In this document: positions 2,876 to 20,236 of the stretch, in pieces
Numbering within the stretch: position 1 is the stretch's first letter
Layout of the letters: every line of letters starts with the position of its first letter
IMG/VR virus record: IMGVR_UViG_2913147268_000003
From: a virus
Lineage: Duplodnaviria > Heunggongvirae > Uroviricota > Caudoviricetes
Length of the DNA stretch: 21,948 nt
Reading direction: 5' to 3' (one strand)
Program-made: the position numbers and the translations under genes
Notes under the pieces: model-generated
The model's input: only the letters and a program-made list of their open reading frames with translations
What the model was told of the DNA's origin: nothing
Databases searched by the model: none

Positions 2876-3286
2876 TCACTCTCCTTTCCCATGAAGCATA
2901 GCGGCGCGGCAGGCGTTCCAGCCTGTAGCGTATGCAGCCGCTTTGCTGCTGCCTTCAACTGGCGCATCCTGCCAATACATTTCATCCGGCACTACCGGCG
3001 CTGGCAAGGCAGCGTGATAGTAGAGTGGCATAGTTTTGTACAGTGGTTCGCCAGGACTTCCGTCAACCTGATTCCATTCTTCAACCCAGGCATCAACAAC
3101 CGCTTTGCTGGTTGATACATGTTCTTCTGAATCTACATTTTGTCCTGATATACAGAACATAACTGCCTCTGCTTCCAGCGATGCCAGAGCAATTCGTGCC
3201 AGTTCCATTTGTTCGCCACGAGTAAGTCCGTTATCAAGCGGATTTTTAATGAATAATTTGATACGTTCTTTGGTTATAGCGTTCAT
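2876..3286 (-). CDS. Hypothetical phage protein (136 aa)
   Basis: ATG at 3284-3286 (MNAITKERIKLF...) preceded by AAGGAGAGTGAG and separated by one nucleotide from the stop of the Ea22-like gene. The N-terminal 50 aa are paralogous to ORF 2433..2600. Confidence 0.5.
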   Translation of the reverse strand: MNAITKERIKLFIKNPLDNGLTRGEQMELARIALASLEAEAVMFCISGQNVDSEEHVSTSKAVVDAWVEEWNQVDGSPGEPLYKTMPLYYHAALPAPVVPDEMYWQDAPVEGSSKAAAYATGWNACRAAMLHGKGE

Positions 3287-3287
3287 C

Positions 3288-4103
3288 TCACTCTCCTTTG
3301 ATGCGAATGCCAGTAGCGCGGATTGCATCGATGACTTCAGAAACTTTGTATGCCATTACCGTTTGGTAATCATCGTGAAAATCTGTTCGATGAAGCATGC
3401 TGCTACGTTCCGGGAGCGATATTTCCCGAGCATCCAGTTCCTTAACGCGCTCCTCCAGTTCGTAGACCCTGCATTGTTCTCTATCATCAATCAGATATAA
3501 CCCAAGACATTCGCTTTCTACCCAACCGCCAAAATCATGATCGTAACGCTCACATGAAAACTCACCGTCACCGTCCTTTGTTGGAATGGTGTAACTATCT
3601 AATGGGCCACCATATGTCGGCACATTTCCCAATGTTGGATGCTCAATCCACATGAAAAATGCACGTCCGGTTATTGGGCAAATATCTGGCCGCCATTGGT
3701 TACGAACAGCCTTGGTTTCGGATAATTCTTCAGCGTGTTGTTTTACTTCCTCAAGCTCAACTCTCAGCTTCCCAACCGTAAGAGCAATATCCTCGTTCTT
3801 CTGGTCGCGGCGTTTGATGTATTGCTGGTTTCTTTCCAGCTCATCCAGCAGCGCCAAGACGGTAGCCGGATTGGCTGCAGCGATGAATTCAGCATTGGCC
3901 TGCTGTTCCATTTGGAAATCTTCATCGAAACCGCTTTCAGGATGCGCTCCTTCAATTCTGCAAATGGGAATATATCCAGCAGCCTCGCGATGAATTAGCG
4001 CATCATCACCATCAAATCGGCCCTCTCCATATTCGAGCGACCACTCACCACACGTTGCTTTCTCTGCCTTTTCACGCAGTGCCTGATAGTCAATCTTGCT
4101 CAC
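3288..4103 (-). CDS. Ead/Ea22-like protein
   Basis: 271 aa with a GTG start at 4101-4103 preceded by a strong AAGGAGG. The N-terminus (MSKIDYQALREKAEKATCGEW), a central coiled-coil-like stretch and its position between xis and the immunity region match lambdoid Ea22-family proteins as I recall them. Confidence 0.6.
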   Translation of the reverse strand: MSKIDYQALREKAEKATCGEWSLEYGEGRFDGDDALIHREAAGYIPICRIEGAHPESGFDEDFQMEQQANAEFIAAANPATVLALLDELERNQQYIKRRDQKNEDIALTVGKLRVELEEVKQHAEELSETKAVRNQWRPDICPITGRAFFMWIEHPTLGNVPTYGGPLDSYTIPTKDGDGEFSCERYDHDFGGWVESECLGLYLIDDREQCRVYELEERVKELDAREISLPERSSMLHRTDFHDDYQTVMAYKVSEVIDAIRATGIRIKGE

Positions 4104-4404
4104 TGGTTGCCTCCTTTGCCGGGATTTCTAACTTTTGAGTGGTTGTATCAAATTCAAACAACTTAACCACGTCATCAAACAGGACATAATCACCATCAGG
4201 ATCTTCAGTCATATCTGCGCCACAATCCTGACCGCACGAGTCGCAACCATCCATATCAAGCTCGTATCGCTTCAGGTTTGCGATATTTGATAAATTCAGC
4301 GCCAGTACAGCCAGGTCATAAACCTCTTCGGCAGTGACATCGCTGTTCAGTCCCATTTCATGGCGATATATGATTTTTTCTACTCGTTGTTTTGTGATCG
4401 TCAT
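4090..4404 (-). CDS. Hypothetical acidic protein
   Basis: ORF ending just before the Ea22-like start. The start is ambiguous: ATG at 4402-4404 with GGAG upstream, or ATG at 4354-4356 lying one nucleotide after the stop of 4358..4675; the track's 4428 start is a TTG. Confidence 0.4.
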   Translation of the reverse strand: MTITKQRVEKIIYRHEMGLNSDVTAEEVYDLAVLALNLSNIANLKRYELDMDGCDSCGQDCGADMTEDPDGDYVLFDDVVKLFEFDTTTQKLEIPAKEATSEQD

Positions 4405-4675
4405 TTTTCTCTTCACTCCGATATACAAGGATTACCACACCCCCTCTGCTGATTGCGCGAGCTGGATCCCCTGGTTCCATGCCGTCAATTCCGAAGGCTT
4501 CGGAAAACGCATTCATTGCCTTCTGGCGTTCATCCTGCTTACGGCGTTTATTCCATTTTTTCAGGAACAACAGCGACAGCCACCGTCCGCTGCAGAACAC
4601 GATGTAAAAATAACCAAGGAGCGCCAGGCCGACATTCAGGGCCGTTTCTATGGTTAGTTGTGAGTCAGTTGCCAT
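4358..4675 (-). CDS. Hypothetical small membrane protein (105 aa)
   Basis: ATG at 4673-4675 with an AGGTAAGAA site, 5 nt after the stop of the upstream gene. The N-terminus has a hydrophobic helix (LNVGLALLGYFYIVF) followed by a basic stretch. Confidence 0.35.
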   Translation of the reverse strand: MATDSQLTIETALNVGLALLGYFYIVFCSGRWLSLLFLKKWNKRRKQDERQKAMNAFSEAFGIDGMEPGDPARAISRGGVVILVYRSEEKNDDHKTTSRKNHISP

Positions 4676-7645: not shown

Positions 7646-7760
7646 TTTTCTTCTCCTCTCATGGCTGTTGATACTAAAGTAACAGAATTTCTTGATACTT
7701 TGGATTCCTGTGGTTAACATCGTTGAATAACAAAGTATCTGGTGTGAGACTAAAGAATGA
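7646..7760. promoter_or_regulatory. Candidate right operator/promoter region
   Basis: Three copies of a 12 bp motif: TTGATACTAAAG (7668-7679), TTGATACTTTGG (7692-7703) and an inverted copy CAAAGTATCTGG (7731-7742). A candidate rightward promoter is TTGATA (7692-7697), 17 bp spacer, TAACAT (7715-7720). Confidence 0.5.
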
Positions 7761-7984
7761 CCCTTTATGAAATATTAAAAATTCAATTTAAAACCAATGC
7801 CGCTATTGGTCGCAGGTTCCCAAAGAAAGGAAGGCCTCGTGGCAGTCAAGGTGTTGGAAAGTGGAAAACGCGAGGTGTTCCGGAGGATGTTGCCATTCTT
7901 TGTCATCTGGATCCGAGCATTCCATATACACACCCAAGTCTAGCGAATACAGAAGATGACAAGCCCACAGGAGACCAACAATGA
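7757..7984 (+). CDS. Questionable small basic ORF in the rightward leader (75 aa)
   Basis: The only long ORF between the candidate rightward promoter and the first large rightward gene; its stop overlaps the next ATG (ATGA). Weak ribosome-binding site, low-complexity basic sequence and no recognisable Cro-like HTH. Confidence 0.2.
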   Translation: MTLYEILKIQFKTNAAIGRRFPKKGRPRGSQGVGKWKTRGVPEDVAILCHLDPSIPYTHPSLANTEDDKPTGDQQ

Positions 7985-8688
7985 ACACCGCAATTTTTAA
8001 CGGCAAAGCATCCATGACCAGCGTTGAGATCGCAGAGCTGGTGGGAAGCCGACCAGATAGTGTTAAGAGAACTATTGAAACACTGGCTAAAAAGGGAATC
8101 ATCCAATTTCCACAGACTGTGGAAATTGAGAATAAACAATCACTTGGGCCTCGCCGATTTTCTAGCGCGTATGTATTCGAAGGTGAACGAGGTAAGCGCG
8201 ACAGCATCATTGTCGTCGCACAGCTCTGTCCTGAATTCACAGCTCGCCTGGTAGATCGCTGGCGCGAACTGGAAGAACAGATCCGTAAGCCAATGAGCGA
8301 AATCGAAATGGTTGCCGCGATGGCTCTTGAAGCCGTTCGCCAACAGAAACGGATCACTCAGGTGGAAGAAAAAGTCAGCCACGTTGCTGAAACAGTCGAG
8401 CAAATTAAAAAGGGCACTATTCGTGAGGGCTATGCCGGATATCGCCAACTGAAAGCAAAAACCGGTTTGTCAGATGATAAATGCCGCAATCTGGTGAACG
8501 CCTATCAAATTCCTACAGACACACATGAGTTCATGACGCCGGACGGATTGTTGTCACGTCGCGCAATTGTTGCTGTGGAACCGTTTATGGCTGCTTTTTA
8601 TCGGGTTATGGAGGAAGCAGAACCGCGAGGGACTCGCTGGTATCACCCGAAAATGGGGTTATTTCAGGTTATTGGTTGGCAGCGGTGA
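7981..8688 (+). CDS. Phage regulatory protein, Rha/antirepressor-like N-terminal DNA-binding domain
   Basis: 235 aa with AGGAGA upstream of the ATG. The N-terminus (NGKASMTSVEIAELVGSRPDSVKRTIETLAKKGI) resembles the Rha-family motif; a coiled-coil-like middle region follows. Confidence 0.55.
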   Translation: MNTAIFNGKASMTSVEIAELVGSRPDSVKRTIETLAKKGIIQFPQTVEIENKQSLGPRRFSSAYVFEGERGKRDSIIVVAQLCPEFTARLVDRWRELEEQIRKPMSEIEMVAAMALEAVRQQKRITQVEEKVSHVAETVEQIKKGTIREGYAGYRQLKAKTGLSDDKCRNLVNAYQIPTDTHEFMTPDGLLSRRAIVAVEPFMAAFYRVMEEAEPRGTRWYHPKMGLFQVIGWQR

Positions 8689-8711
8689 AAAAAAGCCGGG
8701 AGTAACCCGGC
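8688..8711. terminator. GC hairpin flanked by an A-tract, intrinsic-terminator-like
   Basis: AAAAAAA then GCCGGG-agtaa-CCCGGC immediately after the stop of 7981..8688. The T-tract is present only on the minus-strand reading, so orientation and function are ambiguous. Confidence 0.3.
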
Positions 8712-8796
8712 TCACTCAACATCAATAACGGGGAGCTGTTTCGCATAAAACGGCTCCGAAACATCCAAGAACAGTTCTAAAGATATCAGCAGCTAT

Positions 8797-9459
8797 ATGA
8801 TCATTTCAAGACCAAATATTGATTCTGCAATTTCGGGACGTTACACTGTCTCCGCACCTTATAAAGCGGGTGCCGGGATTGGCGTCCTGAAATTGTCAAC
8901 GGCGATGTATGACGCGCCAGCGTCTTTTTTATCGTCCGCATTTGCTCACATCCAGATTATGGTGGGCTGGGCGGGGGCACCGAAAGGTGCGCCGGTCTCC
9001 GTTGACGCCGGTTACGCCAACCCCGTCCAGTTCACCACCAGTGAAATTGGCGTTTCCGGTGGTGGAAGTTTTTCACTGTCAACGGAGGCTGCCATCATGG
9101 CTACTGTCCTAACTTCCCCATTCCTAAAAATCGAAGTCGTCAACGGCAAGGCCGTTATTTTCTCCCTGCATGTTGCCTGCCATTTCAAGCGCATGCACCA
9201 GAACATCGTTGACAAAATCGAGTATCTGAACTGCTCACGCGAGTTTTTTACCCGCAATTTCATACCGGGTACTTATCACATCTACGGTGACTCCCTGCGT
9301 GGTTATTACATCACCCTTGATGGTCTGATGATGCTTCAGCTTGGGTTAAGTCTGCGCACAATGCGGTACTACGAGAGCTGTATTGAAGCATTCCATGAGG
9401 CTGAAACCGTCCAGGGTCACTCCGCGTTCCGTCGTAATCAACGGGAGGTGCACCTATGA
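8797..9459 (+). CDS. Rha-family phage regulatory protein (Rha-like domain in the C-terminal half)
   Basis: 220 aa ORF. The C-terminal half (KIEVVNGKAVIFSLHVACHFKRMHQNIVDKIEYL...GYYITLDGLMMLQLGLS) matches the Rha pattern. An internal ATG at 9098 with a GGAGG site is an alternative start. The N-terminal region is paralogous to that of 9456..10307. Confidence 0.6.
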   Translation: MIISRPNIDSAISGRYTVSAPYKAGAGIGVLKLSTAMYDAPASFLSSAFAHIQIMVGWAGAPKGAPVSVDAGYANPVQFTTSEIGVSGGGSFSLSTEAAIMATVLTSPFLKIEVVNGKAVIFSLHVACHFKRMHQNIVDKIEYLNCSREFFTRNFIPGTYHIYGDSLRGYYITLDGLMMLQLGLSLRTMRYYESCIEAFHEAETVQGHSAFRRNQREVHL

Positions 9460-10307
9460 TCCGCCACCAGCATATTGATTCTGCAATTCCGGGACGTTAC
9501 ACTGCTCAGGCACCTTATAAAGCGGGTGCCGGGCGTGGAAACCCGAAATTCAATATAGAGCACAACCGCGCTCATGCGGTTTTTTCGTGTCATGAGCATC
9601 GTTACACCCAAATTATGGTGGGGCGTGCAGGGCCAACTTCGGTTGGGCCGGGTTCTATGTTGACCGGTATTTCCACCCCTGTACGTCTCACCACCTATAT
9701 GGTCGTGGAAAGCCTTGGTGGTGAGTTCATTGAATTCAACATAGGGGCTGTCACCATGACTACTCTCCCAACCCAATCTCACCCTGAAATCACGATTATC
9801 AATGGTCGCGTTGTCACCACATCTCTTGCAGTAGCTAATTACTTTACTAAACGGCATGAGCGGGTTTTAGATAGAATTAGAAACCTCGAATGTTCCGCTG
9901 AATTTACTGAACACAATTTTGTGTTAAGTGAATACACCGACGCATCAGGCCGCAAACTCCCTTGTTACCAAATCACCCGCGACGGTTTTGCGTTTCTTGC
10001 CATGGGCTTCACTGGTAAACGTGCTGCCCAGTTCAAAGAGGCATACATCAACGCCTTTAACCTGATGGAGAAGAGTTTATCAGGTGCCGATGCGTCTGAT
10101 ATGTCAGCTGTCGCACGAAACGCCAGAGGCGTATACCTGCATTTGCGTGAAATCCATCAAATCTGGACAAGCCAGCTTTATCCAATGCTTAAGGCCGTTG
10201 AATCTCCGCTGGCTAGCAAACTGTACGACCGTGTTGGTGATGCTGTTTTTGGCGCTGCACTTGTTGATTCCAGGCTGAATGGTTCTGACAAGGAGGTTCG
10301 CCCATGA
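9456..10307 (+). CDS. Rha-family phage regulatory protein
   Basis: 283 aa with GGGAGGTG upstream; the start overlaps the previous stop. Clear Rha-like domain (EITIINGRVVTTSLAVANYFTKRHERVLDRIRNLE...CYQITRDGFAFLAMGFTGKRAAQFKEAYINAFNLME). Confidence 0.7.
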   Translation: MIRHQHIDSAIPGRYTAQAPYKAGAGRGNPKFNIEHNRAHAVFSCHEHRYTQIMVGRAGPTSVGPGSMLTGISTPVRLTTYMVVESLGGEFIEFNIGAVTMTTLPTQSHPEITIINGRVVTTSLAVANYFTKRHERVLDRIRNLECSAEFTEHNFVLSEYTDASGRKLPCYQITRDGFAFLAMGFTGKRAAQFKEAYINAFNLMEKSLSGADASDMSAVARNARGVYLHLREIHQIWTSQLYPMLKAVESPLASKLYDRVGDAVFGAALVDSRLNGSDKEVRP

Positions 10308-10498
10308 TTAGTTACGAAATCATCATCTCCACTACGGAATACAGAAACGATGTATCAGTTCGCACGGATGTATCTGTCTGGCACCGTCGCTATAAATCCA
10401 GAAAAACAGCGGAACTGAAAGCGGCAGAGATGTGTGAAACCATCTCAATGAAAGGTAGCCCGGTTAAATACGTAACTACGGCGGAGGTGCGTCCATGA
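10304..10498 (+). CDS. Hypothetical small phage protein (64 aa)
   Basis: ATGA overlap with the upstream stop; stop/start overlap with the next gene. Confidence 0.4.
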   Translation: MISYEIIISTTEYRNDVSVRTDVSVWHRRYKSRKTAELKAAEMCETISMKGSPVKYVTTAEVRP

Positions 10499-10719
10499 TC
10501 CGCCACATCGTTAATTCCCTGTATCACCGATACAACCGTTGCCCCCGTGTGGGGCAGTGGTTCGCCACCAGCAACGGTCACGTTCTGCGGGTTTGCCTAG
10601 TCAACGCTGAAAGCCAGAAAGTCGTGTGCGAACTACAGGGGCGTAGCTACACCATCAGTTACCCTCTGGCGGTATTTCTGTCTGGAAAAATGTTTAAGCG
10701 TCTGGGAGGTGTGGCGTGA
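10495..10719 (+). CDS. Hypothetical small phage protein (74 aa)
   Basis: Start context (GCGGAGGTGCGTCCATGATCCGCCAC) is nearly identical to the start context of 9456..10307. Confidence 0.4.
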   Translation: MIRHIVNSLYHRYNRCPRVGQWFATSNGHVLRVCLVNAESQKVVCELQGRSYTISYPLAVFLSGKMFKRLGGVA

Positions 10720-11998: not shown

Positions 11999-12008
11999 GG
12001 TGACAGCG

Positions 12009-12908
12009 ATGATGACGATTGACCAACGTGAGAAACAAACAAGACTACAGGCGCGAATGGATGAGTTACGGGCAGAAATGGATGAGTTACGGGCAGAGAT
12101 TGCATTTGCTCAGAAGGGCGAAAAGCCATGGCCTTATCGTTCCTGCCTGATGCGTGAAGGTCGCGGATATTGCGAAAAACACGGTAAATATCGTACGCAT
12201 ATACTGGTGTGGATCGATCGTAATGGCGAGGACAGAGAAAAAATTTCATGCTGCCCTGACTGCTTGATCGCTGAGGCCAGTGATTTGACCATGGAACTGT
12301 CGTCCCTCAAGGCGGAAGAACTGACTGATAACGCCGGAATTGCTCTGCGTTTTCGGGACTGCGAGTTTGATAATTATCTGGAGGTTAATCCTGACGCAGC
12401 CAGAAATCTTGCGGCCTGTCGCCGCTATGCGGAGAACTGGCCAGATATGCTGGAGAACGGTACCAGTCTTGTTATGACCGGCAGTTGCGGTACCGGGAAA
12501 AATCATCTGGCGGTATCAATGGCAAAACACATCATCCGTAACTATCTGGCCAGTGTGGAGATCACCGACGTGATGCGCCTTACCCGGGCTGTGAAAAACT
12601 GCTGGCGGAATGACAGTGAAAAAACAGCGGATGACGTCATTGAGCATTATGCGTCACTGGATTTGCTGATTGTCGACGAAGTCGGCGTTCAGTTTGGCAG
12701 TGCGGCTGAAATGGCCATTTTGCAGGAAATTATCAATGCCCGGTATGAGGGTATTTTGCCAACTATCCTGATCAGCAACCTTTCACCGGAAGAATTGTGG
12801 GCGTTCATCAGTCCCCGGATTGCCGACAGGATCACCGATGGCGGGCGCAACTGGTTGTCGTTTAACTGGCCCAGCTACCGTTCTCGTATCGGAGGTGTTG
12901 CCGCATGA
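12009..12908 (+). CDS. DnaC-like helicase loader (IstB-type AAA+ ATPase)
   Basis: ATG at 12009 with GAGGTGA upstream. Walker A (GSCGTGKNHLA) and Walker B (LLIVDEVG) motifs. The N-terminal extension has a Cys cluster (C-x9-C ... CCPDC) and a tandem repeat. Confidence 0.8.
   Translation: MMTIDQREKQTRLQARMDELRAEMDELRAEIAFAQKGEKPWPYRSCLMREGRGYCEKHGKYRTHILVWIDRNGEDREKISCCPDCLIAEASDLTMELSSLKAEELTDNAGIALRFRDCEFDNYLEVNPDAARNLAACRRYAENWPDMLENGTSLVMTGSCGTGKNHLAVSMAKHIIRNYLASVEITDVMRLTRAVKNCWRNDSEKTADDVIEHYASLDLLIVDEVGVQFGSAAEMAILQEIINARYEGILPTILISNLSPEELWAFISPRIADRITDGGRNWLSFNWPSYRSRIGGVAA
12057..12098. repeat. 21 bp tandem duplication within the DnaC-like gene
   Basis: ATGGATGAGTTACGGGCAGAA followed by ATGGATGAGTTACGGGCAGAG, encoding MDELRAE twice in frame. 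Confidence 0.85.
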
Positions 12909-14305
12909 CCAGCCAGAACACCCCGGCATGGCGTAACGATGACCTGGAAGGCGCTGTCATCGGTGCGTTTTTTCTGCGTGGGGCCGATCCGGAAGTGATG
13001 GATATTCTGGCCACACTTCCGGCGGATGTATTTTTTGTGCGTCAGTACCGGGATATTTACGCGGGGATTTGCAGACAGGCTCGCATATCCGGCGTCATTG
13101 ACCCCGTACTGCTGTGCAATGAGATGCCGGAACTTGCCCCGGTGATTACCGACACCGGACGCAAAACCTGGGTGAAGTCTTCACTGGAGCACTATGTCGC
13201 AGCGTTGCGGCGCAATGCCGCACTGCGTGATGCAGAAAAAACACTGACTGAAGCATTACAGAATTTACGTGATGCGTATACCTGTGAAGCAGCCGAGGAT
13301 GCCCTGAAGGATGCGCAGAACATGATGGCCTCACTGTCGACCGGAAAGGGCGTCATTCAGCCGGTTCACATTGATGATGTCCTTCCGGAAGTGGTCGACC
13401 GTGTTGAATGCCGCAATCAGGGACTGGAGAAATCCAGGGCGCTGATGACCGGTATTGATGAACTGGACGCAAAAACGGGCGGTATGGAGCCCGGAGACCT
13501 GGTATTCATTGCCGCCCGTCCTTCGATGGGGAAAACCGAACTTGCGCTGGACATCATCGACAAGGTGACTGAGCAGGGGCATGGCGTGCTTCTGTTCACC
13601 ATGGAGATGGCGAACATCCAGATTGGTGAACGTATGGTGTCTGCTGCCGGTGGAATGCCGGTATCCCGTCTTAAGTCTGTTGCCCGTTTTGAAGATGAAG
13701 ACTGGGCGCGTTTCTCGCAGGGCGTGGGACGAATGACGGGGCGTAATATCTGGATGGTGGACCAGGCAAACCTGACCATTGATGAGATATGTGCAACCAC
13801 GAAGCACCACCGGATGAAGCATCCGGAAACGGCGCTGGTTGTGGTCGATTACCTCGGCCTGATTAAAACCCGCAGCACGGGGCGTCACGACCTTGCTGTG
13901 GGGGAAATCTCAAAGGGACTTAAAAGCCTGGCAAAATCCGGCGGTTTTCCGCTGATTGCTCTGAGCCAGCTCTCCCGTGGCGTGGAATCCAGACCCAATA
14001 AACGCCCAATGAACTCGGACCTGAAAAACTCCGGGGAAATCGAGGCGGATGCCGACATCATTCTGATGCTTTACAGGGAGGAGGTATACAACCCGGAAAC
14101 TCAGGCCAGAGGCATAGCAGAAATCAACATCACGAAACAGCGTAATGGCACGCTCGGGACCATTTACCGGCGTTTTCATAACGGACATTTTCTGCCTGTG
14201 GACCAGGAGAGTGCCCGGGTTCTTTCCACACCAATGCAACAGCCCCAGCCGCGCAGATACAGCAACAAACGAACTGACAGCAGTAAGATGGAGCGTTTCT
14301 TTTGA
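12905..14305 (+). CDS. Replicative DNA helicase, DnaB-like
   Basis: 466 aa with GGAGGTG upstream. Walker A (ARPSMGKTELAL) and other DnaB-like motifs (VVDYLGLI, SQLSRGVESR, ITKQRNG). Confidence 0.85.
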   Translation: MTSQNTPAWRNDDLEGAVIGAFFLRGADPEVMDILATLPADVFFVRQYRDIYAGICRQARISGVIDPVLLCNEMPELAPVITDTGRKTWVKSSLEHYVAALRRNAALRDAEKTLTEALQNLRDAYTCEAAEDALKDAQNMMASLSTGKGVIQPVHIDDVLPEVVDRVECRNQGLEKSRALMTGIDELDAKTGGMEPGDLVFIAARPSMGKTELALDIIDKVTEQGHGVLLFTMEMANIQIGERMVSAAGGMPVSRLKSVARFEDEDWARFSQGVGRMTGRNIWMVDQANLTIDEICATTKHHRMKHPETALVVVDYLGLIKTRSTGRHDLAVGEISKGLKSLAKSGGFPLIALSQLSRGVESRPNKRPMNSDLKNSGEIEADADIILMLYREEVYNPETQARGIAEINITKQRNGTLGTIYRRFHNGHFLPVDQESARVLSTPMQQPQPRRYSNKRTDSSKMERFF

Positions 14306-14990: not shown

Positions 14991-16031
14991 GTGAACATTC
15001 AGGCAGTAGACATTTTTTGTGGTGCGGGGGGCTTAACTTTTGGGCTAAAAAAAGCCGGGATTGAGGTTTCTCATGGTATTGATATTGATGAATCCTGCCG
15101 TTTTGCTATTGAGAGCAATAATCCTTTAACGCAGTTCATTAATCAGTCAGTTACAGAACTGCAATCCTGCGATGTGTCTGCTATGTTCAAGGAAGGAAAT
15201 ATTAGATTGCTTGCTGGATGTGCTCCTTGCCAACCGTTTTCCAAGTATCGTAATCCAAATAGCCGTAAAGACGATACAAAGTGGCGTTTGTTATATGAGT
15301 TTCAAAGGCTTGTAAGTGATGTCATGCCAGAGCTTGTGACGATGGAGAATGTTCCTCAACTTAGAAACCATAAGGTTTTTGAAGGGTTTGTTAGTGCATT
15401 AAAGACTCTTGGATATCATTTGTGGTACGACGTTGTAAGATGTTCTGAGTATGGCTTACCTCAAAATAGACGTAGATTAATTCTAATTGGTTCCCAATTG
15501 GGGCCGATCAGCCTTGATCAAAAAAAAGTTAGCCGTAAAGTTACTGTTAAGGATGCTATTGGTAGGTTGCCAAAAGTAGGGGCAGGTGAGAAGCTGGAAA
15601 GCGATCCCTTGCATCGTTCGCCTAAATTGATGGATATCAATCTTAAACGAATCATGCATTCTTTACCTGGTGGTACGTGGGATGACTGGCCTGAAGAAAT
15701 TAGAGCAGACTGTCATAAAAAGAATTCAGGTGCTACCTATAAAAGCGTTTATGGACGGATGGTTTGGGACGATACTAGCCCTACGATAACTACCCAGTGT
15801 TATGGATATGGAAATGGACGATTTGGCCATCCTGAGCAAAATCGCGCCATAACTTTGCGTGAAGCTGCGATTTTGCAATCCTTTCCAATGGATTATAAAT
15901 TCCTTGACAAGGAGACGCCTTTTTCATTCCAAAAATTGGGGACAATGATTGGAAATGCTGTTCCCCCTATAATTGGTCAGATAATAGGGGAAACATTTAT
16001 CAGACATGTTGAGGGGATAAATACCCGTTAG
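14991..16031 (+). CDS. DNA (cytosine-5)-methyltransferase
   Basis: 346 aa, GTG start with GGAGAA upstream. Canonical C5-MTase motifs: motif I (DIFCGAGG), motif IV (GCAPCQPFS), motif VI (TMENVPQL), motif VIII (QNRRRLILIG) and motif X (GNAVPP). Confidence 0.9.
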   Translation: MNIQAVDIFCGAGGLTFGLKKAGIEVSHGIDIDESCRFAIESNNPLTQFINQSVTELQSCDVSAMFKEGNIRLLAGCAPCQPFSKYRNPNSRKDDTKWRLLYEFQRLVSDVMPELVTMENVPQLRNHKVFEGFVSALKTLGYHLWYDVVRCSEYGLPQNRRRLILIGSQLGPISLDQKKVSRKVTVKDAIGRLPKVGAGEKLESDPLHRSPKLMDINLKRIMHSLPGGTWDDWPEEIRADCHKKNSGATYKSVYGRMVWDDTSPTITTQCYGYGNGRFGHPEQNRAITLREAAILQSFPMDYKFLDKETPFSFQKLGTMIGNAVPPIIGQIIGETFIRHVEGINTR

Positions 16032-16689
16032 AGGTAATATAATTTTCTGTTGAGTTGATTAATAAACGCAAATATAGATCAATTCTTTCTGACCTCGATT
16101 TGACTTCTTCTAAAGGGTCTATTTGACCTTTTTTAGAAAAGCTGGTACTTCCATGTGCCAGCTCATTTCTGATATCTTTAAGTAAATCTAAGTCAACACC
16201 ATTTCTACACTCTGGTGAGTTTGCAACAGTTATTCCGTAAGCTTGTGTTATTTTGTGCAATACAGACTTGCAAACATTACCATTGAATTCTTTACGTATG
16301 TTTAATGAGGCTGAAATGATCCTTTTAGATATATCGGAACCAATTTTTTGATAAAGAGATTTTCCCGATTCATTATCTGAAATGATACGGTGCAAGATAT
16401 TTACTTGGAATTTCTCCCTGAGTGATGCGTAATTTACTTCATTATCTTGCAAATGGTCATAAATTGACTCAATGCATCCTCTGGCAGTGTTTTCAACCTG
16501 ATTGTACAGCATCATGTGCACGGATGATTTTAAAATGTTAACCCTAAGGGTATTTGATTCTATTTCATCTTTATGCGTTTGCTGATCTAACTGCTGAGTC
16601 TGAGCCTCTAAAGATGACGCAAGAGAAAGCAATTCCATAATATCTCTTGCTCTTTCTTCGTATTCATCTCTTAAATCAATCAAACTCAT
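16000..16689 (-). CDS. HEPN-domain protein (putative RNase effector)
   Basis: 229 aa with its ATG 2 nt after the stop of the DUF262 gene. C-terminal R-x4-H motif (IRNELAHG, residues 174-179) typical of HEPN, preceded by a coiled-coil-like N-terminus. Confidence 0.55.
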   Translation of the reverse strand: MSLIDLRDEYEERARDIMELLSLASSLEAQTQQLDQQTHKDEIESNTLRVNILKSSVHMMLYNQVENTARGCIESIYDHLQDNEVNYASLREKFQVNILHRIISDNESGKSLYQKIGSDISKRIISASLNIRKEFNGNVCKSVLHKITQAYGITVANSPECRNGVDLDLLKDIRNELAHGSTSFSKKGQIDPLEEVKSRSERIDLYLRLLINSTENYITSNGYLSPQHV

Positions 16690-16691
16690 AG

Positions 16692-17849
16692 TTACATTCC
16701 TAATAATTTATCTTTGACATAAAATATTCTGTTTTTGAGTTGGCTGGTGTTGTTGGCACTATCAGCAGTAACTATGGTTTCAAATTCCTCCCCAAACAGC
16801 CAGTCTCCTACAGGAATAACCGGAGCCTGTAGATGTGGATTGGCTTTTAAGGCAAGAGCAGTTCCCACTGCTATGGCTTCGTATCTAGCACGGGGGGTGG
16901 TTTTGCTTGTTGGTGTCTTTTTAAACCCCATAGGGAAATGAGCATCTACAAAAGCAAGCATGCTTTCAAAATCATGTTTAAATTTGTCTACATCTTGTTG
17001 TGTGACCCTTTCGGCCTGAACATTAAGATAATTGTCAATAAAAGGAGCGACATAACCCTTATAATTTTCTAAATCATTTAAGTATGCAAAAAATCTCAAA
17101 ACTAACTCACGATGATCGCCATTCGAACGTTTCCGGTCTGATAATGGAGCTAGACTAGCGAAAAGTGGATTTGTTGAGCAAGGAGTCACAACATCCCTAT
17201 AGAAAATTGAAGTGGCCGCATCTGAACCATGTCTAACCTCCATCGCTTCCAGTCTCTTAACACCTGAATTTATTCTTTCGAATAAATCTCTTCTATGTTG
17301 CTCCTCAACATCACCTTTCAATTCAATAAATCTTAGTGATGCCCTTAAAAATCGCCTCTGGCGGCTAGCCAAAAGATCTGAAAATTTGAAGCCCTCTAAA
17401 CTTTTGAGTTCTTTTAAGTCTTTCAATTCAAACTGATTGTTCCAAAAGTAGTAAATTGAGCGAATCCTTTGTGAACCGTCAATAATTTCTACACGACCAT
17501 CCAACTCAGGATCTTCATTAAATACGTCGGAGATGTAGAGGTACGGGATTGGAAAATCTAATAATATACTTTCGATGAATCGAGAGGCTGTTTTGATATC
17601 CCATTTGTAATCGCGTTGATAATCAGGAATAAAAAGTTCGTTTTTGTCAGTTTCAAGATTATTGCCATACTTTTGTACAATTAATTCAACGGTCCATTCA
17701 CGTACGTTGTATCCAATATTTCTCTGAGCAAGCCTAATCTCGTTGTCGGCAGAAGTGACCAAGGCTGCAATTTCAGCTTTTTTTCTATTTTTCGCGTTTT
17801 CATCTTGAATCTGAGCAAGCTCTTCTTTGAGTTCTTTGAGTGTGGTCAT
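16692..17849 (-). CDS. DUF262 (ParB-like nuclease superfamily) domain protein
   Basis: 385 aa with AAGGAA upstream. N-terminal DUF262 signature motifs (IPDYQRDYKWD and IIDGSQRIRSI); the C-terminal roughly 180 aa are unassigned. Confidence 0.7.
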   Translation of the reverse strand: MTTLKELKEELAQIQDENAKNRKKAEIAALVTSADNEIRLAQRNIGYNVREWTVELIVQKYGNNLETDKNELFIPDYQRDYKWDIKTASRFIESILLDFPIPYLYISDVFNEDPELDGRVEIIDGSQRIRSIYYFWNNQFELKDLKELKSLEGFKFSDLLASRQRRFLRASLRFIELKGDVEEQHRRDLFERINSGVKRLEAMEVRHGSDAATSIFYRDVVTPCSTNPLFASLAPLSDRKRSNGDHRELVLRFFAYLNDLENYKGYVAPFIDNYLNVQAERVTQQDVDKFKHDFESMLAFVDAHFPMGFKKTPTSKTTPRARYEAIAVGTALALKANPHLQAPVIPVGDWLFGEEFETIVTADSANNTSQLKNRIFYVKDKLLGM

Positions 17850-17955
17850 ATCACTGTTCCTTTAATTGGAGTTGGAAATAGATTGTAAGAAAACTATAAC
17901 GCGTACGCAAAAAATATTATATCGTGTTAAGAGTGGTTACTACGCCACACAGCTT

Positions 17956-17979
17956 AAACCCGCCGCCAGGCGGTTTTTT
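17956..17979 (+). terminator. Intrinsic terminator (plus-strand sense)
   Basis: AAA then CCGCC-gcca-GGCGG followed by TTTTTT. No plus-strand gene lies immediately upstream, so it appears orphaned. Confidence 0.5.
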
Positions 17980-18102
17980 GTGTCCGAAAAACGGCGCAGT
18001 ACGTTAAACGTGCTGGTGGTTGCGAATACCGGTCTTTCAGCTTGCTGGCTTTTCAGACAAGAGTTATTGGTATGTCACGTTAACCAGAAAAGGGAAAAAG
18101 AC

Positions 18103-18300
18103 ATGCTAAAACAGCAGGATATGACCGAAACTGCCAGAGTGGTGTTTAATGAATTAAGCGTCACCGAACCGGCGACCGTCGGGGAAATTGCGCAGAATAC
18201 TTACCTTTCACGCGAACGCTGCCAGCTAATACTGACCCAGCTTGTTATGGCGGGTCTGGCAGATTATCAGTTCGGTTGTTACAGACGCCTTCCGCAGTGA
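18103..18300 (+). CDS. Small putative winged-helix regulator (65 aa)
   Basis: ATG at 18103 (MLKQQDMTETARVVFNELSVTEPATVGEIAQNTYLSRERCQLILTQLVMAGLADYQ...) resembles small FaeA/PapI-like winged-helix proteins; the track's longer ORF from 17866 is unsupported. Confidence 0.4.
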   Translation: MLKQQDMTETARVVFNELSVTEPATVGEIAQNTYLSRERCQLILTQLVMAGLADYQFGCYRRLPQ

Positions 18301-18407
18301 AGGCTTTTTTATTTGTGGTAATGGGCGGCTGGTGGGTGTTAGCGGCACCTGCCAGCCATCTGCTCATGCGTTGGGGTCACAAGCAAACCTCAGGCCCATC
18401 TGCTTTG

Positions 18408-18624
18408 ATCCGCGGTCGCATCATCCAGGTGCCGTCAAACTATGACCCGGAAAAACGCACGTACAGTGGTATCTGGGACGGCAGTCTGAAACCGGCATAC
18501 AGCAACAACCCGGCCTGGTGCCTGTGGGACATGCTGACTCACCCGCGCTACGGCATGGGAAAACGTCTGGGGCGGCGGATGTGGACAAGTGGGCGCTGTA
18601 TGCCATCGGGCAGTACTGCGACCA
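18408..18624 (+). pseudogene. Tail-tip host-specificity (J-like) fragment, plus-strand copy
   Basis: Encodes [55 protein letters not shown], then frameshifts by loss of one G. It is an inverted copy (about 99%) of 20019..20236. Confidence 0.6.
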
Positions 18625-20236
18625 TGCCTGATATCCGCAATCCGCTTTTCCGAGAACCAGAACTCAAACTGTACCGTCGGGTCATAAACGGCAAGATGTG
18701 GCGTTGCGGTTATCTGAAAATAGCCCGGCGTCAGCTCAATCCGCGACGGTGCTGCCGGTGCGGTAATCCGGAAGGTGGTGGTGGCAGGTTCACCCTGCTG
18801 GCCATAGCTGTTTATCGCCCGCACCGTCAGGGTGTATTCCCCGAGCGGCAGGCCGCTGAAACGGTGCTCCGTGTCTGCGGTGATGGCGGTGGTCACCAGT
18901 CTGGCATCCGTTCCCTTACCACTGGTCAGGCGCAGACTGAAGCACACACCCTTCACCACCCGCGGCGTGTCCCATTTCGCCTGCGCCAGATACTGGCCGT
19001 CAGCTGCGCTCACCTCCACCGTCAGGTGCTGCACTGCCGGTGGGATGACGCTGTTCAGGGAACCTGACTGCGGCTCAAAGCGGGCACCGTTATCCACGAT
19101 GGCTTCTTTTTCCGGTACGTGCTGCACCGCCGTGATGGCAAAGGTGCCGTCCGTGTTTTCCCGGATGGAGACACAGCGGAACAGGCGACGGCGCAGTGAC
19201 GGCAGGGAGAGTCCCCACACCCCGTATGTCTCCACACCATCAGGCAGGGTACTGACCTGTATCCGGTCCGGCGCGGGGTGTGCGGTGATGTCCACACTCA
19301 CCGGCTTACCGCTGCCGTTAATCAGGTTCACCGCCGATGTACCTGTCTCCGGCAGGGTAACCTCACGGTCCAGCGTCAGGGTGCGGGTGGCAGCATCAAT
19401 GGACAGGACACGTCCGCCGGTCAGGGTCCCGGCATAGTCATTATCACAGATTTCAATAATGTCACCGGGTGTGTGCCGCAGCCCCTGAGACCCGAGCGTG
19501 AAATCCACCGTCTGCGTTTCCAGCAGTTCGGTCTTTATCACCCACAGTCCGGCACGGTGGGCCTGACCGCGGCTGGTACAGCCGAACGCGTCCATCTTCA
19601 GCAGGTTGCGTCCGTAGCGCAGTATGGCTTCCGGGTCTTCCACCAGTTCCGTGGAGGTCTGCCAGCCGTTCTGCGGGTCGGTGTAATTCACCTCCACCGC
19701 CGTGTGCCGGTCCTTCAGGGCACTGAAGCTGTAGCGGAATCCCACGCCGTTATCATCCACCACCACATCGCTGTTGGTGTACGGCCACACCACATCCGAC
19801 GGGCGGTCCTGAACGAACGTCAGCGTCTGACCGTTCCATACCGGCATACAGCGCATCGCAGAGCAGAAATCACTGAGAACGTCCCACGCCTTACGCTGTT
19901 GTGCCAGGTACGCATTAAAGGTCATCCGCGGCTCGGTCCCCCCGAAACCATCCGGGACCGTCTGGTCGCAGTACTGCCCGATGGCATACAGCGCCCACTT
20001 GTCCACATCCGCCGCCCCTGGTCGCAGTACTGCCCGATGGCATACAGCGCCCACTTGTCCACATCCGCCGCCCCCAGACGTTTTCCCATGCCGTAGCGCG
20101 GGTGAGTCAGCATGTCCCACAGACACCAGGCCGGGTTGTTGCTGTATGCCGGTTTCAGACTGCCGTCCCAGATACCACTATACGTGCGTTTTTCCGGGTC
20201 ATAGTTTGACGGCACCTGGATGATGCGACCGCGGAT
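18625..20236 (-). pseudogene. Tail-tip host-specificity protein (lambda J-like) internal fragment, frameshifted
   Basis: Minus-strand translation gives a long J-like stretch ([74 protein letters not shown] ... [44 protein letters not shown]) matching the central part of lambda J as recalled. It lacks both ends and is broken by a 56 bp tandem duplication. Confidence 0.8.
19962..20073. repeat. Perfect 2 x 56 bp tandem duplication inside the J-like remnant
   Basis: CTGGTCGCAGTACTGCCCGATGGCATACAGCGCCCACTTGTCCACATCCGCCGCCC occurs twice in direct tandem (19962-20017 and 20018-20073). 56 is not a multiple of 3, so it frameshifts the J reading frame. Confidence 0.85.

What the first reader, a model, noticed from the sequence alone, without database searches (positions are those of the whole stretch)
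8797..10307. Tandem Rha-family genes share a conserved N-terminal block with about 90% nucleotide identity
ORFs 8797..9459 and 9456..10307 both place a Rha-like domain in the C-terminal half, preceded by a roughly 100 aa Gly/Pro/Ala/Ser-rich N-terminal region. A 60 nt block is about 90% identical between them (ATTGATTCTGCAATT[T/C]CGGGACGTTACACTG...GCACCTTATAAAGCGGGTGCCGGG); the six nucleotide differences in it are all non-synonymous, which is unexpected for purifying selection on protein and hints at an RNA or DNA-level element, or recent gene conversion. The block contains a small hairpin (GCACC-ttataaagcg-GGTGC). The start contexts of 9456 and 10495 are also near-identical, and both Rha genes have plausible internal starts.
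Basis: seen in the sequence. Interest (0 to 1): 0.5.

Follow-up and report, generated by a model that had tools for sequence, protein, structure and literature searches.

The report
Tandem antisense-RNA immunity cassettes, not protein domains
The shared "N-terminal block" of the two Rha genes is the promoter and first hairpin of a known phage RNA-immunity cassette (IsrK/seqA-like leader plus C4/CI-type antisense RNA) that sits in front of each Rha gene, so this is an ordinary known system present twice with two different RNA specificities.

Summary
In detail: 8818-8877 and 9474-9533 match at 54 of 60 bases, and all three changed codons are non-synonymous. The roughly 100-aa "N-terminal regions" are RNA-regulatory leaders. 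Rfam finds isrK (8854-8930, 9510-9586) and C4 antisense RNA (8955-9042, 9611-9698) above gathering score in both. The 60-nt block is a promoter (-35 TTGATT, -10 TACACT) plus the IsrK 5' hairpin. Five of the six differences lie between the -10 and the start site.

Each C4 carries two recognition sequences, a' and b'. They are complementary to sites in its own IsrK and to sites over the ribosome-binding site of the internal Rha start (ATG 9097, ATG 9756). The two cassettes use different a'/b'. Across 102 related cassettes, the loops co-vary with their targets.

The long ORFs resemble P4 eta: they are kept free of stops, have their own start codons, and show no protein-level constraint. AlphaFold predicts no structure in the region. 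Pfam "Phage_ASH" therefore models translated RNA leader.

Cassette 2 plus orf64 (1039 bp) is an insertion flanked by a 24-nt direct repeat. This is a new member of a known kind (P1 immI, P4 immunity, Gifsy-1 isrK-anrP). Tandem arrays with different specificities recur in about 10% of sampled loci.

The parts
8797..9459 (+). Long ORF 1 (220 aa; PGAP calls it 'ash family protein'). It is eta-like and runs through promoter 1, IsrK-1, C4-1 and Rha1 in one frame.
   Evidence: ORF list. PGAP annotation. Pfam Phage_ASH at aa 16-106 plus Rha. Aligns in frame with P4 Eta, E=1e-10. Frame-0 stop depletion.
8819..8847 (+). Promoter 1: -35 TTGATT (8819-8824), 17-nt spacer, -10 TACACT (8842-8847). The inferred start site is G8854.
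   Evidence: Read from the sequence. Other cassettes carry different -35/-10 hexamers (TTGAAA/TATAGT, TTGAAT/TATAGT, TTGACG/TATATT) at the same distance from the hairpin. The consensus scanner did not call it because it matches only 8 of 12 positions.
8854..8930 (+). IsrK/seqA-like RNA 1. It contains target sites a1 (TTGGCGT, 8879-8885) and b1 (GTCAACGG, 8895-8902) and an intrinsic terminator (8911-8924 plus a T run).
   Evidence: Rfam RF01394, 62.2 bits against a gathering score of 50. Terminator scan. Complementarity.
8955..9042 (+). C4/CI-type antisense RNA 1. The b' loop is TCTCCGTTGACG (8995-9006) and a' is TTACGCCAA (9011-9019). An orf45-like ATG lies at 8959, in frame.
   Evidence: Rfam RF01695, 81.4 bits against a gathering score of 45. 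Fold -52.2 kcal/mol. Covariation in 37 distinct homologues.
9047..9091 (+). seqC-like target 1. It contains a2 (TTGGCGT, 9047-9053) and b2 (CTGTCAACGGAGGCTG, 9076-9091), which covers SD GGAGG (9084-9088).
   Evidence: b'1 with b2(1) gives -25.4 kcal/mol, against -13.1 on cassette 2. Loop-target covariation across 102 cassettes.
9097..9459 (+). Rha1 short form (120 aa), nested in frame. It occupies the position of P4 kil.
   Evidence: Pfam Rha 30.0 bits. TIGR02681 from residue 9. AlphaFold folded region 111-205 of the long form. The start, MATVLT, resembles P4 Kil MATTLT.
9444..9467 (+). Left copy of the 24-nt direct repeat (SD plus ATGATCCGCCAC). It is the left joint of the inserted cassette. 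ATG 9456 overlaps the TGA stop of ORF1.
   Evidence: Alignment with the Stx2d phage, in which rha1 is followed directly by the orf74 homologue.
9456..10307 (+). Long ORF 2 (283 aa). It is eta-like and translationally coupled to ORF1 through an ATGA overlap.
   Evidence: The same SD-ATGA joint occurs in other tandem loci.
9475..9503 (+). Promoter 2: -35 TTGATT (9475-9480), -10 TACACT (9498-9503). The inferred start site is G9510.
   Evidence: Identical to promoter 1 except for one spacer base.
9510..9586 (+). IsrK/seqA-like RNA 2. It contains a1 (GTGGAAA, 9535-9541), b1 (TCAATATAGAG, 9550-9560) and a terminator (9564-9581 plus a T run).
   Evidence: Rfam RF01394, 61.6 bits. Terminator scan. Complementarity.
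9611..9698 (+). C4/CI-type antisense RNA 2. The b' loop is GTTCTATGTTGA (9651-9662) and a' is TATTTCCAC (9667-9675). An in-frame ATG lies at 9615.
   Evidence: Rfam RF01695, 82.4 bits. Fold -44.5 kcal/mol.
9705..9747 (+). seqC-like target 2. It contains a2 (GTGGAAA, 9705-9711) and b2 (TCAACATAGGG, 9736-9746), which covers SD AGGGG (9743-9747).
   Evidence: b'2 with b2(2) gives -17.8 kcal/mol, against -12.8 on cassette 1.
9756..10307 (+). Rha2 short form (183 aa), the payload of cassette 2.
   Evidence: TIGR02681 100.7 bits. Pfam Rha.
10304..10498 (+). orf64, a hypothetical gene carried in with cassette 2 inside the 1039-bp insertion.
   Evidence: Absent from the Stx2d phage arrangement. No Pfam hit.
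10483..10506 (+). Right copy of the 24-nt direct repeat. It includes the start of orf74 (ATG 10495).
   Evidence: orf74 is 82% identical to the Stx2d phage ORF that directly follows rha1.

Best explanation
The interval holds two tandem copies of the P4/P1-type RNA-immunity cassette, in the early-right region of an E. coli lambdoid prophage.

Each cassette has five parts:
- an internal sigma-70 promoter;
- an IsrK/seqA-like leader RNA, ending in an intrinsic terminator and carrying target sites a1 and b1;
- a C4/CI-type antisense RNA of about 88 nt, processed from read-through transcripts;
- a second pair of target sites, a2 and b2, with b2 lying over the Shine-Dalgarno sequence of the short Rha form;
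- the Rha-family payload.

Inferred mechanism. In the lysogen the promoter fires constitutively. Most transcripts stop at the IsrK terminator. Read-through supplies C4 RNA. The a' and b' sequences of C4 pair with a2/b2 and with a1/b1, which blocks Rha translation and favours premature termination. Free IsrK can titrate C4 or remodel the leader and so activate expression, as shown for Gifsy-1.

The two cassettes have unrelated a'/b' sequences, so each C4 should control only its own Rha.

The long ORFs that run through the leaders are the equivalent of P4 eta. They can only be translated on transcripts made from an upstream promoter. What matters is that they are translated, not what protein they make. 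Translation would carry ribosomes through the leader and make expression insensitive to C4.

The 60-nt block is the constant promoter and 5'-hairpin part of the cassette, shared by many cassettes with different specificities.

Shown here: the RNA family matches, structure covariation, loop-target covariation, open-frame maintenance, and the insertion joint. Inferred: promoter activity, processing, repression, and bypass by translation.
For: RNA family matches. Rfam hits lie above gathering score for isrK and C4 in both cassettes. P4's own seqA and CI score similarly.

C4 structure. 99.8% of cells are paired. 13 of 27 pairs show changes on both sides. 0 of 500 shuffles reach the observed score.

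Loop-target covariation. Among 102 unique cassettes, the b' loop matches its own b2 with a mean score of 10.4, against 6.2 for cassettes with other loops. In 81 of 102, no foreign target matches as well as the cassette's own. a' co-varies with a1 and a2.

Cognate and non-cognate duplex energies within the window are given.

Internal starts. b2 covers the SD of the internal ATGs, and the Rha profile starts there.

Terminators lie at 8911-8930 and 9564-9586.

Promoter position is conserved even where the hexamers differ.

Open-frame maintenance. Stop codons by frame (0/1/2) are 7/74/140 in isrK, 0/70/46 in C4, 0/18/7 in 39 unique b' loops and 2/27/29 in 55 unique b1 contexts. An in-frame ATG with an SD lies just upstream of the promoter in unrelated contexts, and ATGA coupling occurs in tandem arrays.

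No protein-level constraint. Variable states by codon position are 17/12/9 in C4, against 100/91/166 in the rha2 coding sequence. AlphaFold with a 59-sequence alignment gives no secondary structure and pLDDT 35-54 for aa 1-105, while the Rha domain folds.

P4 precedent. P4 Eta aligns in the same frame up to the Kil start.

Literature. PMC4825925 covers Gifsy-1 isrK-orf45-anrP and the processed STnc1160 RNA. PMC3632133 equates IsrK with seqA and C4 with CI, and notes their presence in lambdoid prophages. PMC10111431 describes the P4 eta/kil/CI model.
Against: There are no expression data for this prophage.

The promoter matches only 8 of 12 consensus positions, and the scanner did not call it.

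Long ORF 1 (ATG 8797) has no obvious SD, so its translation is doubtful.

Stop-codon depletion shows that the frame is kept open, but not when or why it is translated.

The related cassettes share ancestry, so counts over the constant parts are not independent. Only the hypervariable parts count as independent draws.

Some non-cognate pairing is predicted. a'2 pairs with 9060-9070 of cassette 1 at -12.1 kcal/mol, so full orthogonality is not proven.

The function of Rha1 and Rha2 as antirepressors is assumed from AnrP and Ant. It was not tested.
Confidence: 0.72

Rival explanations
1. The leaders are purely non-coding. The long ORFs 8797-9459 and 9456-10307 are gene-caller artefacts, and only the short Rha forms (9097, 9756) are ever translated.
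For: The promoter lies inside the ORFs, so cassette-initiated transcripts lack the long-ORF start codons. The leader has no codon-position signature and no predicted fold. ATG 8797 has no clear SD.
Against: Stops are strongly depleted in this frame only, including in the hypervariable loop and target segments. An ATG plus SD recurs at a fixed distance upstream in unrelated contexts, and ATGA overlaps occur in tandem arrays. About a quarter of cassettes have a different frame relation at the payload start, yet the rest keep more than 300 nt open. In P4, eta is reported to be translated from the upstream promoter (PMC10111431, citing Forti 1999). In Gifsy-1, orf45 across the C4 region is translated (PMC4825925).
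Confidence: 0.17
2. The N-terminal 100 aa is a genuine protein domain (Pfam Phage_ASH, or 'Icd-like') fused to Rha, and the block is conserved for protein function.
For: Pfam PF10554 hits both ORFs (E=1e-18 and 2e-9). There are 98 database proteins, most named 'ash family' or 'Icd-like'. The frame is kept open.
Against: All three codon changes in the block are non-synonymous. Third codon positions are not more variable in the leader, although they are in the rha2 coding sequence. AlphaFold with the family alignment gives no secondary structure and pLDDT below 55. The profile spans a promoter, an intrinsic terminator and an RNA with 13 covarying pairs. In P4 the same profile lands on the discarded 'cI protein' ORF that overlies the CI RNA.
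Confidence: 0.04
3. The 90%-identical block reflects recent gene conversion or duplication between the two neighbouring copies, not functional constraint.
For: The block is more similar (90%) than the rest of the leaders, which average 79% with a'/b' unrelated. The copies are adjacent.
Against: The same block, including its spacer, occurs in many single-cassette phages with other a'/b' combinations. The variation falls in the same 5 nt before the start site. Cassette 2 arrived as a 1039-bp insertion between conserved gene-boundary repeats and is not a duplication of cassette 1. The Rha payloads differ (120 aa and 183 aa; 32% identity).
Confidence: 0.07

Closest known systems
Satellite phage P4 immunity region (PLE - seqA - CI RNA - seqC, nested genes eta/kil)
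   Same: The order of elements is the same. An internal constitutive promoter, seqA (Rfam isrK), CI (Rfam C4) and a downstream target all lie inside a long ORF, with a shorter in-frame ORF starting just after the target. Eta aligns in frame with window ORF1 (E=1e-10), and the Kil start MATTLT matches MATVLT/MTTLPT. The long ORF is coupled to the upstream gene.
   Different: The payload here is a Rha-family regulator of 120 or 183 aa, not the 65-aa Kil. The host element is a lambdoid prophage, not a satellite. There are two cassettes in series. P4 has an extra insert between seqA and CI. In P4 the readout is transcription termination; here b2 lies directly over the SD, which resembles P1.
Gifsy-1 isrK-orf45(STnc1160)-anrP-isrJ locus of Salmonella (PMC4825925)
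   Same: It is also in a lambdoid prophage. It has an IsrK sRNA with a terminator, read-through into a region that yields a processed RNA of about 80 nt, an ORF starting at the AUG in the 5' strand of that RNA, and a downstream antirepressor-type protein. The paper notes that the nucleotide sequence is conserved while the peptide is not, and that in S. dysenteriae orf45 is fused to anrP (287 aa). Window ORF2 (283 aa) has the same fused form.
   Different: In Gifsy-1, orf45 ends at the anrP start (AUGA). Here the frame runs on into Rha. The paper models IsrK as a trans-activator and does not treat STnc1160 as a C4 repressor. It describes a single cassette.
P1/P7 immI operon (c4 - icd - ant1/2)
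   Same: A C4 antisense RNA has a' and b' sequences that pair with a2/b2 over a ribosome-binding site, and with a1/b1 upstream. Specificity is set by a few loop bases, giving P1/P7 heteroimmunity. It controls an antirepressor (Citron and Schuster 1990 as cited in PMC7313666; further details from my own knowledge).
   Different: In P1 the promoter is under C1 control, and the target RBS belongs to icd, which is coupled to ant. The payload families differ (Icd and Ant, not Rha). No tandem arrays have been described.
Pfam PF10554 Phage_ASH / NCBI 'ash family protein' / 'Icd-like protein'
   Same: Both long ORFs match at aa 15-111. PGAP names ORF1 accordingly.
   Different: The profile corresponds to the promoter, IsrK, C4 and target region read in frame 0. 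It is not a folded domain.

Membership tests
C4 antisense RNA (Rfam RF01695; P1 c4 / P4 CI) | Covariance-model score above the curated gathering threshold over the full model | tested here: met
   82.4 and 81.4 bits against a threshold of 45, covering model positions 1-87 of 87.
C4 antisense RNA (Rfam RF01695; P1 c4 / P4 CI) | A long closing stem with two internal hairpins, supported by compensatory changes | tested here: met
   99.8% of cells paired. 13 pairs show changes on both sides. 0 of 500 shuffles reach the score. Slid controls give 0.06-0.09 against 0.536. Helix 3 is invariant because of how the loci were fished out (the pattern).
C4 antisense RNA (Rfam RF01695; P1 c4 / P4 CI) | Exposed a'/b' sequences complementary to sites both upstream (a1/b1, seqA) and downstream (a2/b2, seqC) on the same transcript, with the downstream site at an RBS | tested here: met
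   Sites were located in both cassettes. The loops co-vary with their targets in 102 cassettes. b2 covers the SD of ATG 9097 and ATG 9756.
C4 antisense RNA (Rfam RF01695; P1 c4 / P4 CI) | Produced by processing (RNase P, PNPase) of a longer transcript, and acting as a repressor in trans | not testable with these tools
   Only the conserved 3' CACCACC tail is visible.
IsrK / P4 seqA leader RNA (Rfam RF01394) | Covariance-model score above gathering threshold, three hairpins, and a 3' intrinsic terminator | tested here: met
   62.2 and 61.6 bits against a threshold of 50. Terminator-like hairpins with T runs lie at 8911-8930 and 9564-9586.
IsrK / P4 seqA leader RNA (Rfam RF01394) | Own promoter immediately upstream (start site at model position 1) | tested here: inconclusive
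   The -35/-10 elements are at the correct spacing, and that position is conserved across promoter sequence classes. The match is only 8 of 12 to consensus, the scanner did not call it, and there are no start-site data.
P4-type nested-gene arrangement (eta/kil) | A long ORF that starts upstream of the internal promoter and contains seqA-CI-seqC, with a shorter in-frame ORF starting after seqC | tested here: met
   ORFs 8797-9459 with 9097-9459, and 9456-10307 with 9756-10307. ORF1 aligns in frame with P4 Eta. The frame is kept open across homologues.
P4-type nested-gene arrangement (eta/kil) | [quoted passage not shown] | tested here: inconclusive
   Cassette 2 has an ATGA overlap plus SD GGGAGGT. 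Cassette 1 has no clear SD. Use of the upstream promoter cannot be tested here.
Rha family phage regulatory protein (PF09669 / TIGR02681) | Profile match above the curated cut-off | tested here: met
   Rha2 scores 106 bits (Pfam) and 100.7 bits (TIGR), both above cut-off. Rha1 is borderline: 30.0 against 29.9 (Pfam, short form), and 37.9 against 45.95 (TIGR, below cut-off).
Pfam Phage_ASH as a protein domain | Protein-level conservation and a foldable domain | tested here: not met
   The HMM matches. However, third codon positions show no excess variation, and AlphaFold gives no structure. The profile overlies RNA genes here and in P4.

The most novel reading that the evidence does not exclude
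Tandem cassettes may form a wired hierarchy rather than two independent locks. Long ORF 2 starts on the stop codon of Rha1. Once cassette 1 is derepressed, ribosomes would be delivered into cassette 2's embedded promoter, IsrK, C4 and target region. This would override C4-2, in the way upstream-promoter/eta translation overrides CI in P4.

In parallel, the b' loop and the a' sequence would act as a hypervariable, recombining address code. At least 39 b' loop sequences were seen in about 120 loci, and about 8 a' sequences. The code would keep the many co-resident prophages of E. coli from cross-controlling each other's payloads. Those payloads include Rha, Kil/Icd-like peptides, derepression proteins and Tad2-like anti-defence proteins.
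Probability: 0.25. Interest if true: 0.55.

Novelty: new member of a known kind. Interest (0 to 1): 0.3.

Why it matters
Three practical points follow.

1. Annotation. RefSeq labels this leader "ash family protein" and lists no ncRNA there. Pfam PF10554 and the NCBI names "ash" and "Icd-like" mostly describe a translated RNA-immunity leader. Hundreds of prophage annotations are therefore misleading, and the true Rha start sites are mis-set by about 100 codons.

2. Prophage biology in ST131-type E. coli. The cassettes probably gate antirepressor-like Rha proteins, and so affect prophage induction and cross-talk. The exact 2-kb arrangement is present in 91 of 5426 complete E. coli genomes.

3. 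Wider use of the cassette. It appears to be a general, re-addressable RNA switch with swappable payloads. Tandem arrays with different specificities recur in about 10% of sampled loci and, in the searches run here, were not found described. The underlying mechanism has been known since P1, P7 and P4.

Tried and rejected
- I looked for a LexA box or other obvious operator in the block and saw none by eye.
- The sigma-70 scanner did not report the promoter because it matches only 8 of 12 positions. The promoter assignment therefore rests on position and comparison.
- Folding the whole C4 against the whole leader with RNAduplex gave uninformative long duplexes, because it unfolds C4. I repeated it with the loops only.
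- The first codon-position entropy test had a poor positive control, because the downstream genes are heterogeneous. I repeated it on the rha2-type subset. The rha1-type subset stayed saturated and is uninformative.
- I asked whether tandem copies avoid sharing b'. All 13 multi-copy loci, counting the window, have different b'. By my rough, uncomputed estimate random pairs would usually differ as well, so this is not evidence of avoidance.
- Forti et al. 1999 (PMC94026) could not be read. The P4 model is cited through PMC10111431.
- A literature search for tandem C4/IsrK arrays found nothing relevant. That is weak evidence of absence.
Full report
**Observation.** The two ORFs (8797-9459, 220 aa; 9456-10307, 283 aa) exist. 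The block 8818-8877 matches 9474-9533 at 54 of 60 positions. The six differences lie in three codons, and all three are non-synonymous. The hairpin GCACC-N10-GGTGC is real. The start contexts of 9456 and 10495 are nearly identical. In-frame internal starts exist at 9097 and 9756.

**What the region is.** An Rfam scan of the window gives four hits above gathering score, all in this interval:
- isrK (RF01394) at 8854-8930 and 9510-9586, at 62 bits;
- C4 antisense RNA (RF01695) at 8955-9042 and 9611-9698, at 81-82 bits, covering the full model.

The supposed N-terminal 100 aa of each Rha ORF is therefore the leader of a P1/P4-type RNA-immunity cassette.

**What the 60-nt block is.** It breaks down as follows: -35 TTGATT (8819-8824), a 17-nt spacer, -10 TACACT (8842-8847), six bases, then G8854. 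G8854 is position 1 of the isrK model and the first base of the IsrK 5' hairpin. One of the six differences is in the promoter spacer. The other five lie between the -10 and the start site. This explains the absence of synonymous-type variation: the constraint acts on a promoter and an RNA, not on a peptide.

The consensus scanner did not call this promoter, because it matches only 8 of 12 positions. However, other cassettes carry quite different hexamers (TTGAAA/TATAGT, TTGAAT/TATAGT, TTGACG/TATATT) at the same distance from the hairpin. That supports the assignment. Intrinsic-terminator-like hairpins with T runs end both IsrK copies (8911-8930, 9564-9586).

**Anatomy and specificity.**

| Element | Cassette 1 | Cassette 2 |
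|---|---|---|
| b' loop in C4 | TCTCCGTTGACG | GTTCTATGTTGA |
| a' in C4 | TTACGCCAA | TATTTCCAC |
| a1 (in IsrK) | TTGGCGT, 8879-8885 | GTGGAAA, 9535-9541 |
| b1 (in IsrK) | GTCAACGG, 8895-8902 | TCAATATAGAG, 9550-9560 |
| a2 (downstream) | TTGGCGT, 9047-9053 | GTGGAAA, 9705-9711 |
| b2 (downstream) | CTGTCAACGGAGGCTG, 9076-9091 | TCAACATAGGG, 9736-9746 |
| SD covered by b2 | GGAGG, 9084-9088 | AGGGG, 9743-9747 |
| Rha start | ATG 9097 | ATG 9756 |

Cognate b'-b2 duplexes are much stronger than non-cognate ones: -25.4 against -13.1 kcal/mol for cassette 1, and -17.8 against -12.8 for cassette 2. The TIGR02681 Rha profile begins at the internal ATGs, so these are the starts of the Rha domain proteins.

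**Comparative evidence.** A degenerate pattern for the C4 core pulled 120 IMG/VR loci, giving 102 unique cassettes and 58 unique C4 sequences.
- The C4 structure is strongly supported. 99.8% of cells are paired, 13 of 27 pairs show changes on both sides, no shuffle out of 500 reaches the score, and slid controls collapse.
- The b' loop is hypervariable, with about 40 variants. It co-varies with b1 and b2: the mean score against a cassette's own b2 is 10.4, against 6.2 for cassettes with other loops. For 81 of 102 cassettes, no foreign target matches as well as their own.
- a' occurs as four main sequences in the pattern set. Four more were seen in the HMM scan. It co-varies with a1 and a2, and the a' and b' types are recombined among cassettes.
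- The promoter and 5'-hairpin block is shared, nearly unchanged, by many cassettes with different specificities and in single-cassette phages. Its variation sits in the same 5 nt before the start site. It is a constant part of the cassette, and gene conversion within this window is not needed to explain it.

**How the tandem arose.** In Stx2 phages such as LC567830, cassette 1 is followed directly by a 77-aa ORF that is 82% identical to window orf74. In the window, cassette 2 plus orf64 (1039 bp) lies between two copies of a 24-nt repeat, GGAGGTGCNNCNATGATCCGCCAC (9444-9467 and 10483-10506; 21 of 24 identical). ATG 9456 is thus a gene-boundary start codon.

An HMM scan shows that 12 of 118 IMG/VR loci carry two or more C4 copies. 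One locus (L027) has three, spaced 656 nt apart. Copies in the same locus always have different b'. The exact 2-kb arrangement occurs in 91 of 5426 complete E. coli genomes, including ST131 strains.

**Are the long ORFs real?** This was the unexpected part. In the frame of the long ORFs, stop codons are strongly depleted through the promoter, IsrK, spacer, C4 and post-C4 segments. Counts by frame (0/1/2) are 10/128/123, 7/74/140, 4/15/39, 0/70/46 and 7/72/117. The depletion also holds in the hypervariable segments, which are closest to independent draws: 0/18/7 in the b' loops and 2/27/29 in the b1 contexts. An in-frame ATG with an SD sits 6-8 codons upstream of the -35 in unrelated sequence contexts. 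In tandem arrays this ATG overlaps the preceding stop codon as ATGA.

Against this, the leader shows no excess variation at third codon positions: 17/12/9 in C4, against 100/91/166 in the rha2 coding sequence. AlphaFold with a 59-sequence family alignment predicts no secondary structure for residues 1-105, with pLDDT 35-54, while the Rha domain at residues 111-205 folds, with 10-residue block means up to 84. The frame is therefore kept open, but the peptide is not conserved as a protein.

This matches the P4 precedent. P4 Eta (214 aa, 8168-8812 on the minus strand) contains PLE, seqA and CI (Rfam isrK and C4 hits). It aligns in frame with window ORF1 up to EAAIMAT(T/V)LT, which is the start of the nested 65-aa Kil. 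In P4, eta is reported to be translated only from an upstream promoter. It is coupled to the upstream gene, and its translation prevents immunity-dependent termination (PMC10111431, summarising Forti 1999). In Gifsy-1, orf45 across the same region is translated and coupled to anrP. Its nucleotide sequence is conserved while its peptide is not, and in S. dysenteriae it is fused to anrP (PMC4825925).

Pfam Phage_ASH matches aa 15-111 of both window ORFs. In P4 it matches the obsolete "cI protein" ORF that overlies the CI RNA. The family therefore models the translated leader. NCBI names for its members are "ash family protein" and "Icd-like". RefSeq annotates only coding sequences in this region.

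**Mechanism (inferred).** The internal promoter fires constitutively. Most transcripts end at the IsrK terminator. Read-through supplies C4. C4 pairs with a2/b2, blocking the Rha ribosome-binding site as in P1, and with a1/b1, probably favouring termination as in P4. IsrK can counteract this, as in Gifsy-1. The two cassettes should be controlled independently because their a'/b' differ. One possible cross-match exists: a'2 with 9060-9070, at -12.1 kcal/mol. Transcripts from upstream promoters can be translated through the leader and so escape C4. In cassette 2 this translation is coupled to Rha1.

**Comparison and verdict.** This is a member of the known IsrK/seqA-C4/CI immunity systems: P1/P7 immI, P4, and Gifsy-1. 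Its presence in lambdoid prophages has been noted before (PMC3632133). The defining features that could be tested were met. Processing and trans-repression cannot be tested here.

The new points are modest: the tandem arrangement with different specificities and translational coupling, the size and mosaic nature of the a'/b' repertoire, and sequence evidence that the eta-like open frame is maintained across lambdoid cassettes. Payloads downstream of 94 unique cassettes are mostly Rha (52). They also include short Kil/Icd-like peptides, derepression proteins (5) and Tad2-like proteins (3).

Interest is low to moderate.

Noticed in passing
window 7981-8688 (+) and 8693-8713: A third Rha/HTH gene sits at the cII position, directly after cro (7757-7984), and has no IsrK/C4 leader. 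It is followed by a GC-rich hairpin whose T run lies only on the minus strand, so the hairpin looks like a terminator for leftward transcription, not rightward.
   Followed up: no
window 9058-9065 and 9717-9725: A conserved GGTGGTG box lies between a2 and b2 in both cassettes. It is complementary to the 3' strand (CACCACC) of the C4 closing stem, and the flanking bases co-vary (GGTGGTGGAA with TTCACCACC; GGTGGTGAG with CTCACCACC). This suggests an alternative pairing in the unprocessed transcript.
   Followed up: partly
window 9060-9070 versus 9667-9675: The a' sequence of C4-2 (UAUUUCCACC) can pair with UGGUGGAAGUU in the cassette-1 leader at -12.1 kcal/mol. That is as strong as its cognate a sites, so some cross-talk between the cassettes is possible.
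   Followed up: no
L027 9709-11107 (IMG/VR 2671181028_000005): Three C4 cassettes lie in tandem at 656-nt spacing, each with a different a'/b' pair. Arrays can therefore exceed two units.
   Followed up: partly
IMG/VR loci L003-L122 (payload ORFs listed): Besides Rha, the gene under C4 control is in some loci a Tad2-like (Thoeris anti-defence 2) protein (3 loci) or a 'Derepression' family protein (5 loci). In about 30 loci it is a 60-80 aa peptide with no Pfam match, probably Kil/Icd-like. Anti-defence genes may therefore be gated by this RNA switch.
   Followed up: partly
L001 (NZ_AP022525.1) 3098-4608, equal to window 8797-10307: RefSeq/PGAP annotates only coding sequences here ('ash family protein', 'Rha family phage regulatory protein') and no ncRNA, although Rfam isrK and C4 score above gathering. 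The P4 reference record still carries a 137-aa 'cI gene product' CDS labelled 'transcriptional repressor' over the CI RNA.
   Followed up: yes
window 14991-20126: Downstream of the replication genes (DnaC-like 12000-12908, DnaB 12905-14305) lie a Dcm-type C5 methylase (14991-16031), a GmrSD-N protein on the minus strand (16692-17849) and a tail-tip J-like protein on the minus strand (18435-20126). This is an unusual neighbourhood for lambdoid early genes and suggests a mosaic or a junction with another prophage remnant.
   Followed up: no
window 9012-9263 (-) and 9438-9857 (-): ORFs of 83 and 139 aa lie antisense to the leaders. I did not examine them. They are probably a by-product of the GC-rich structured RNA.
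   Followed up: no
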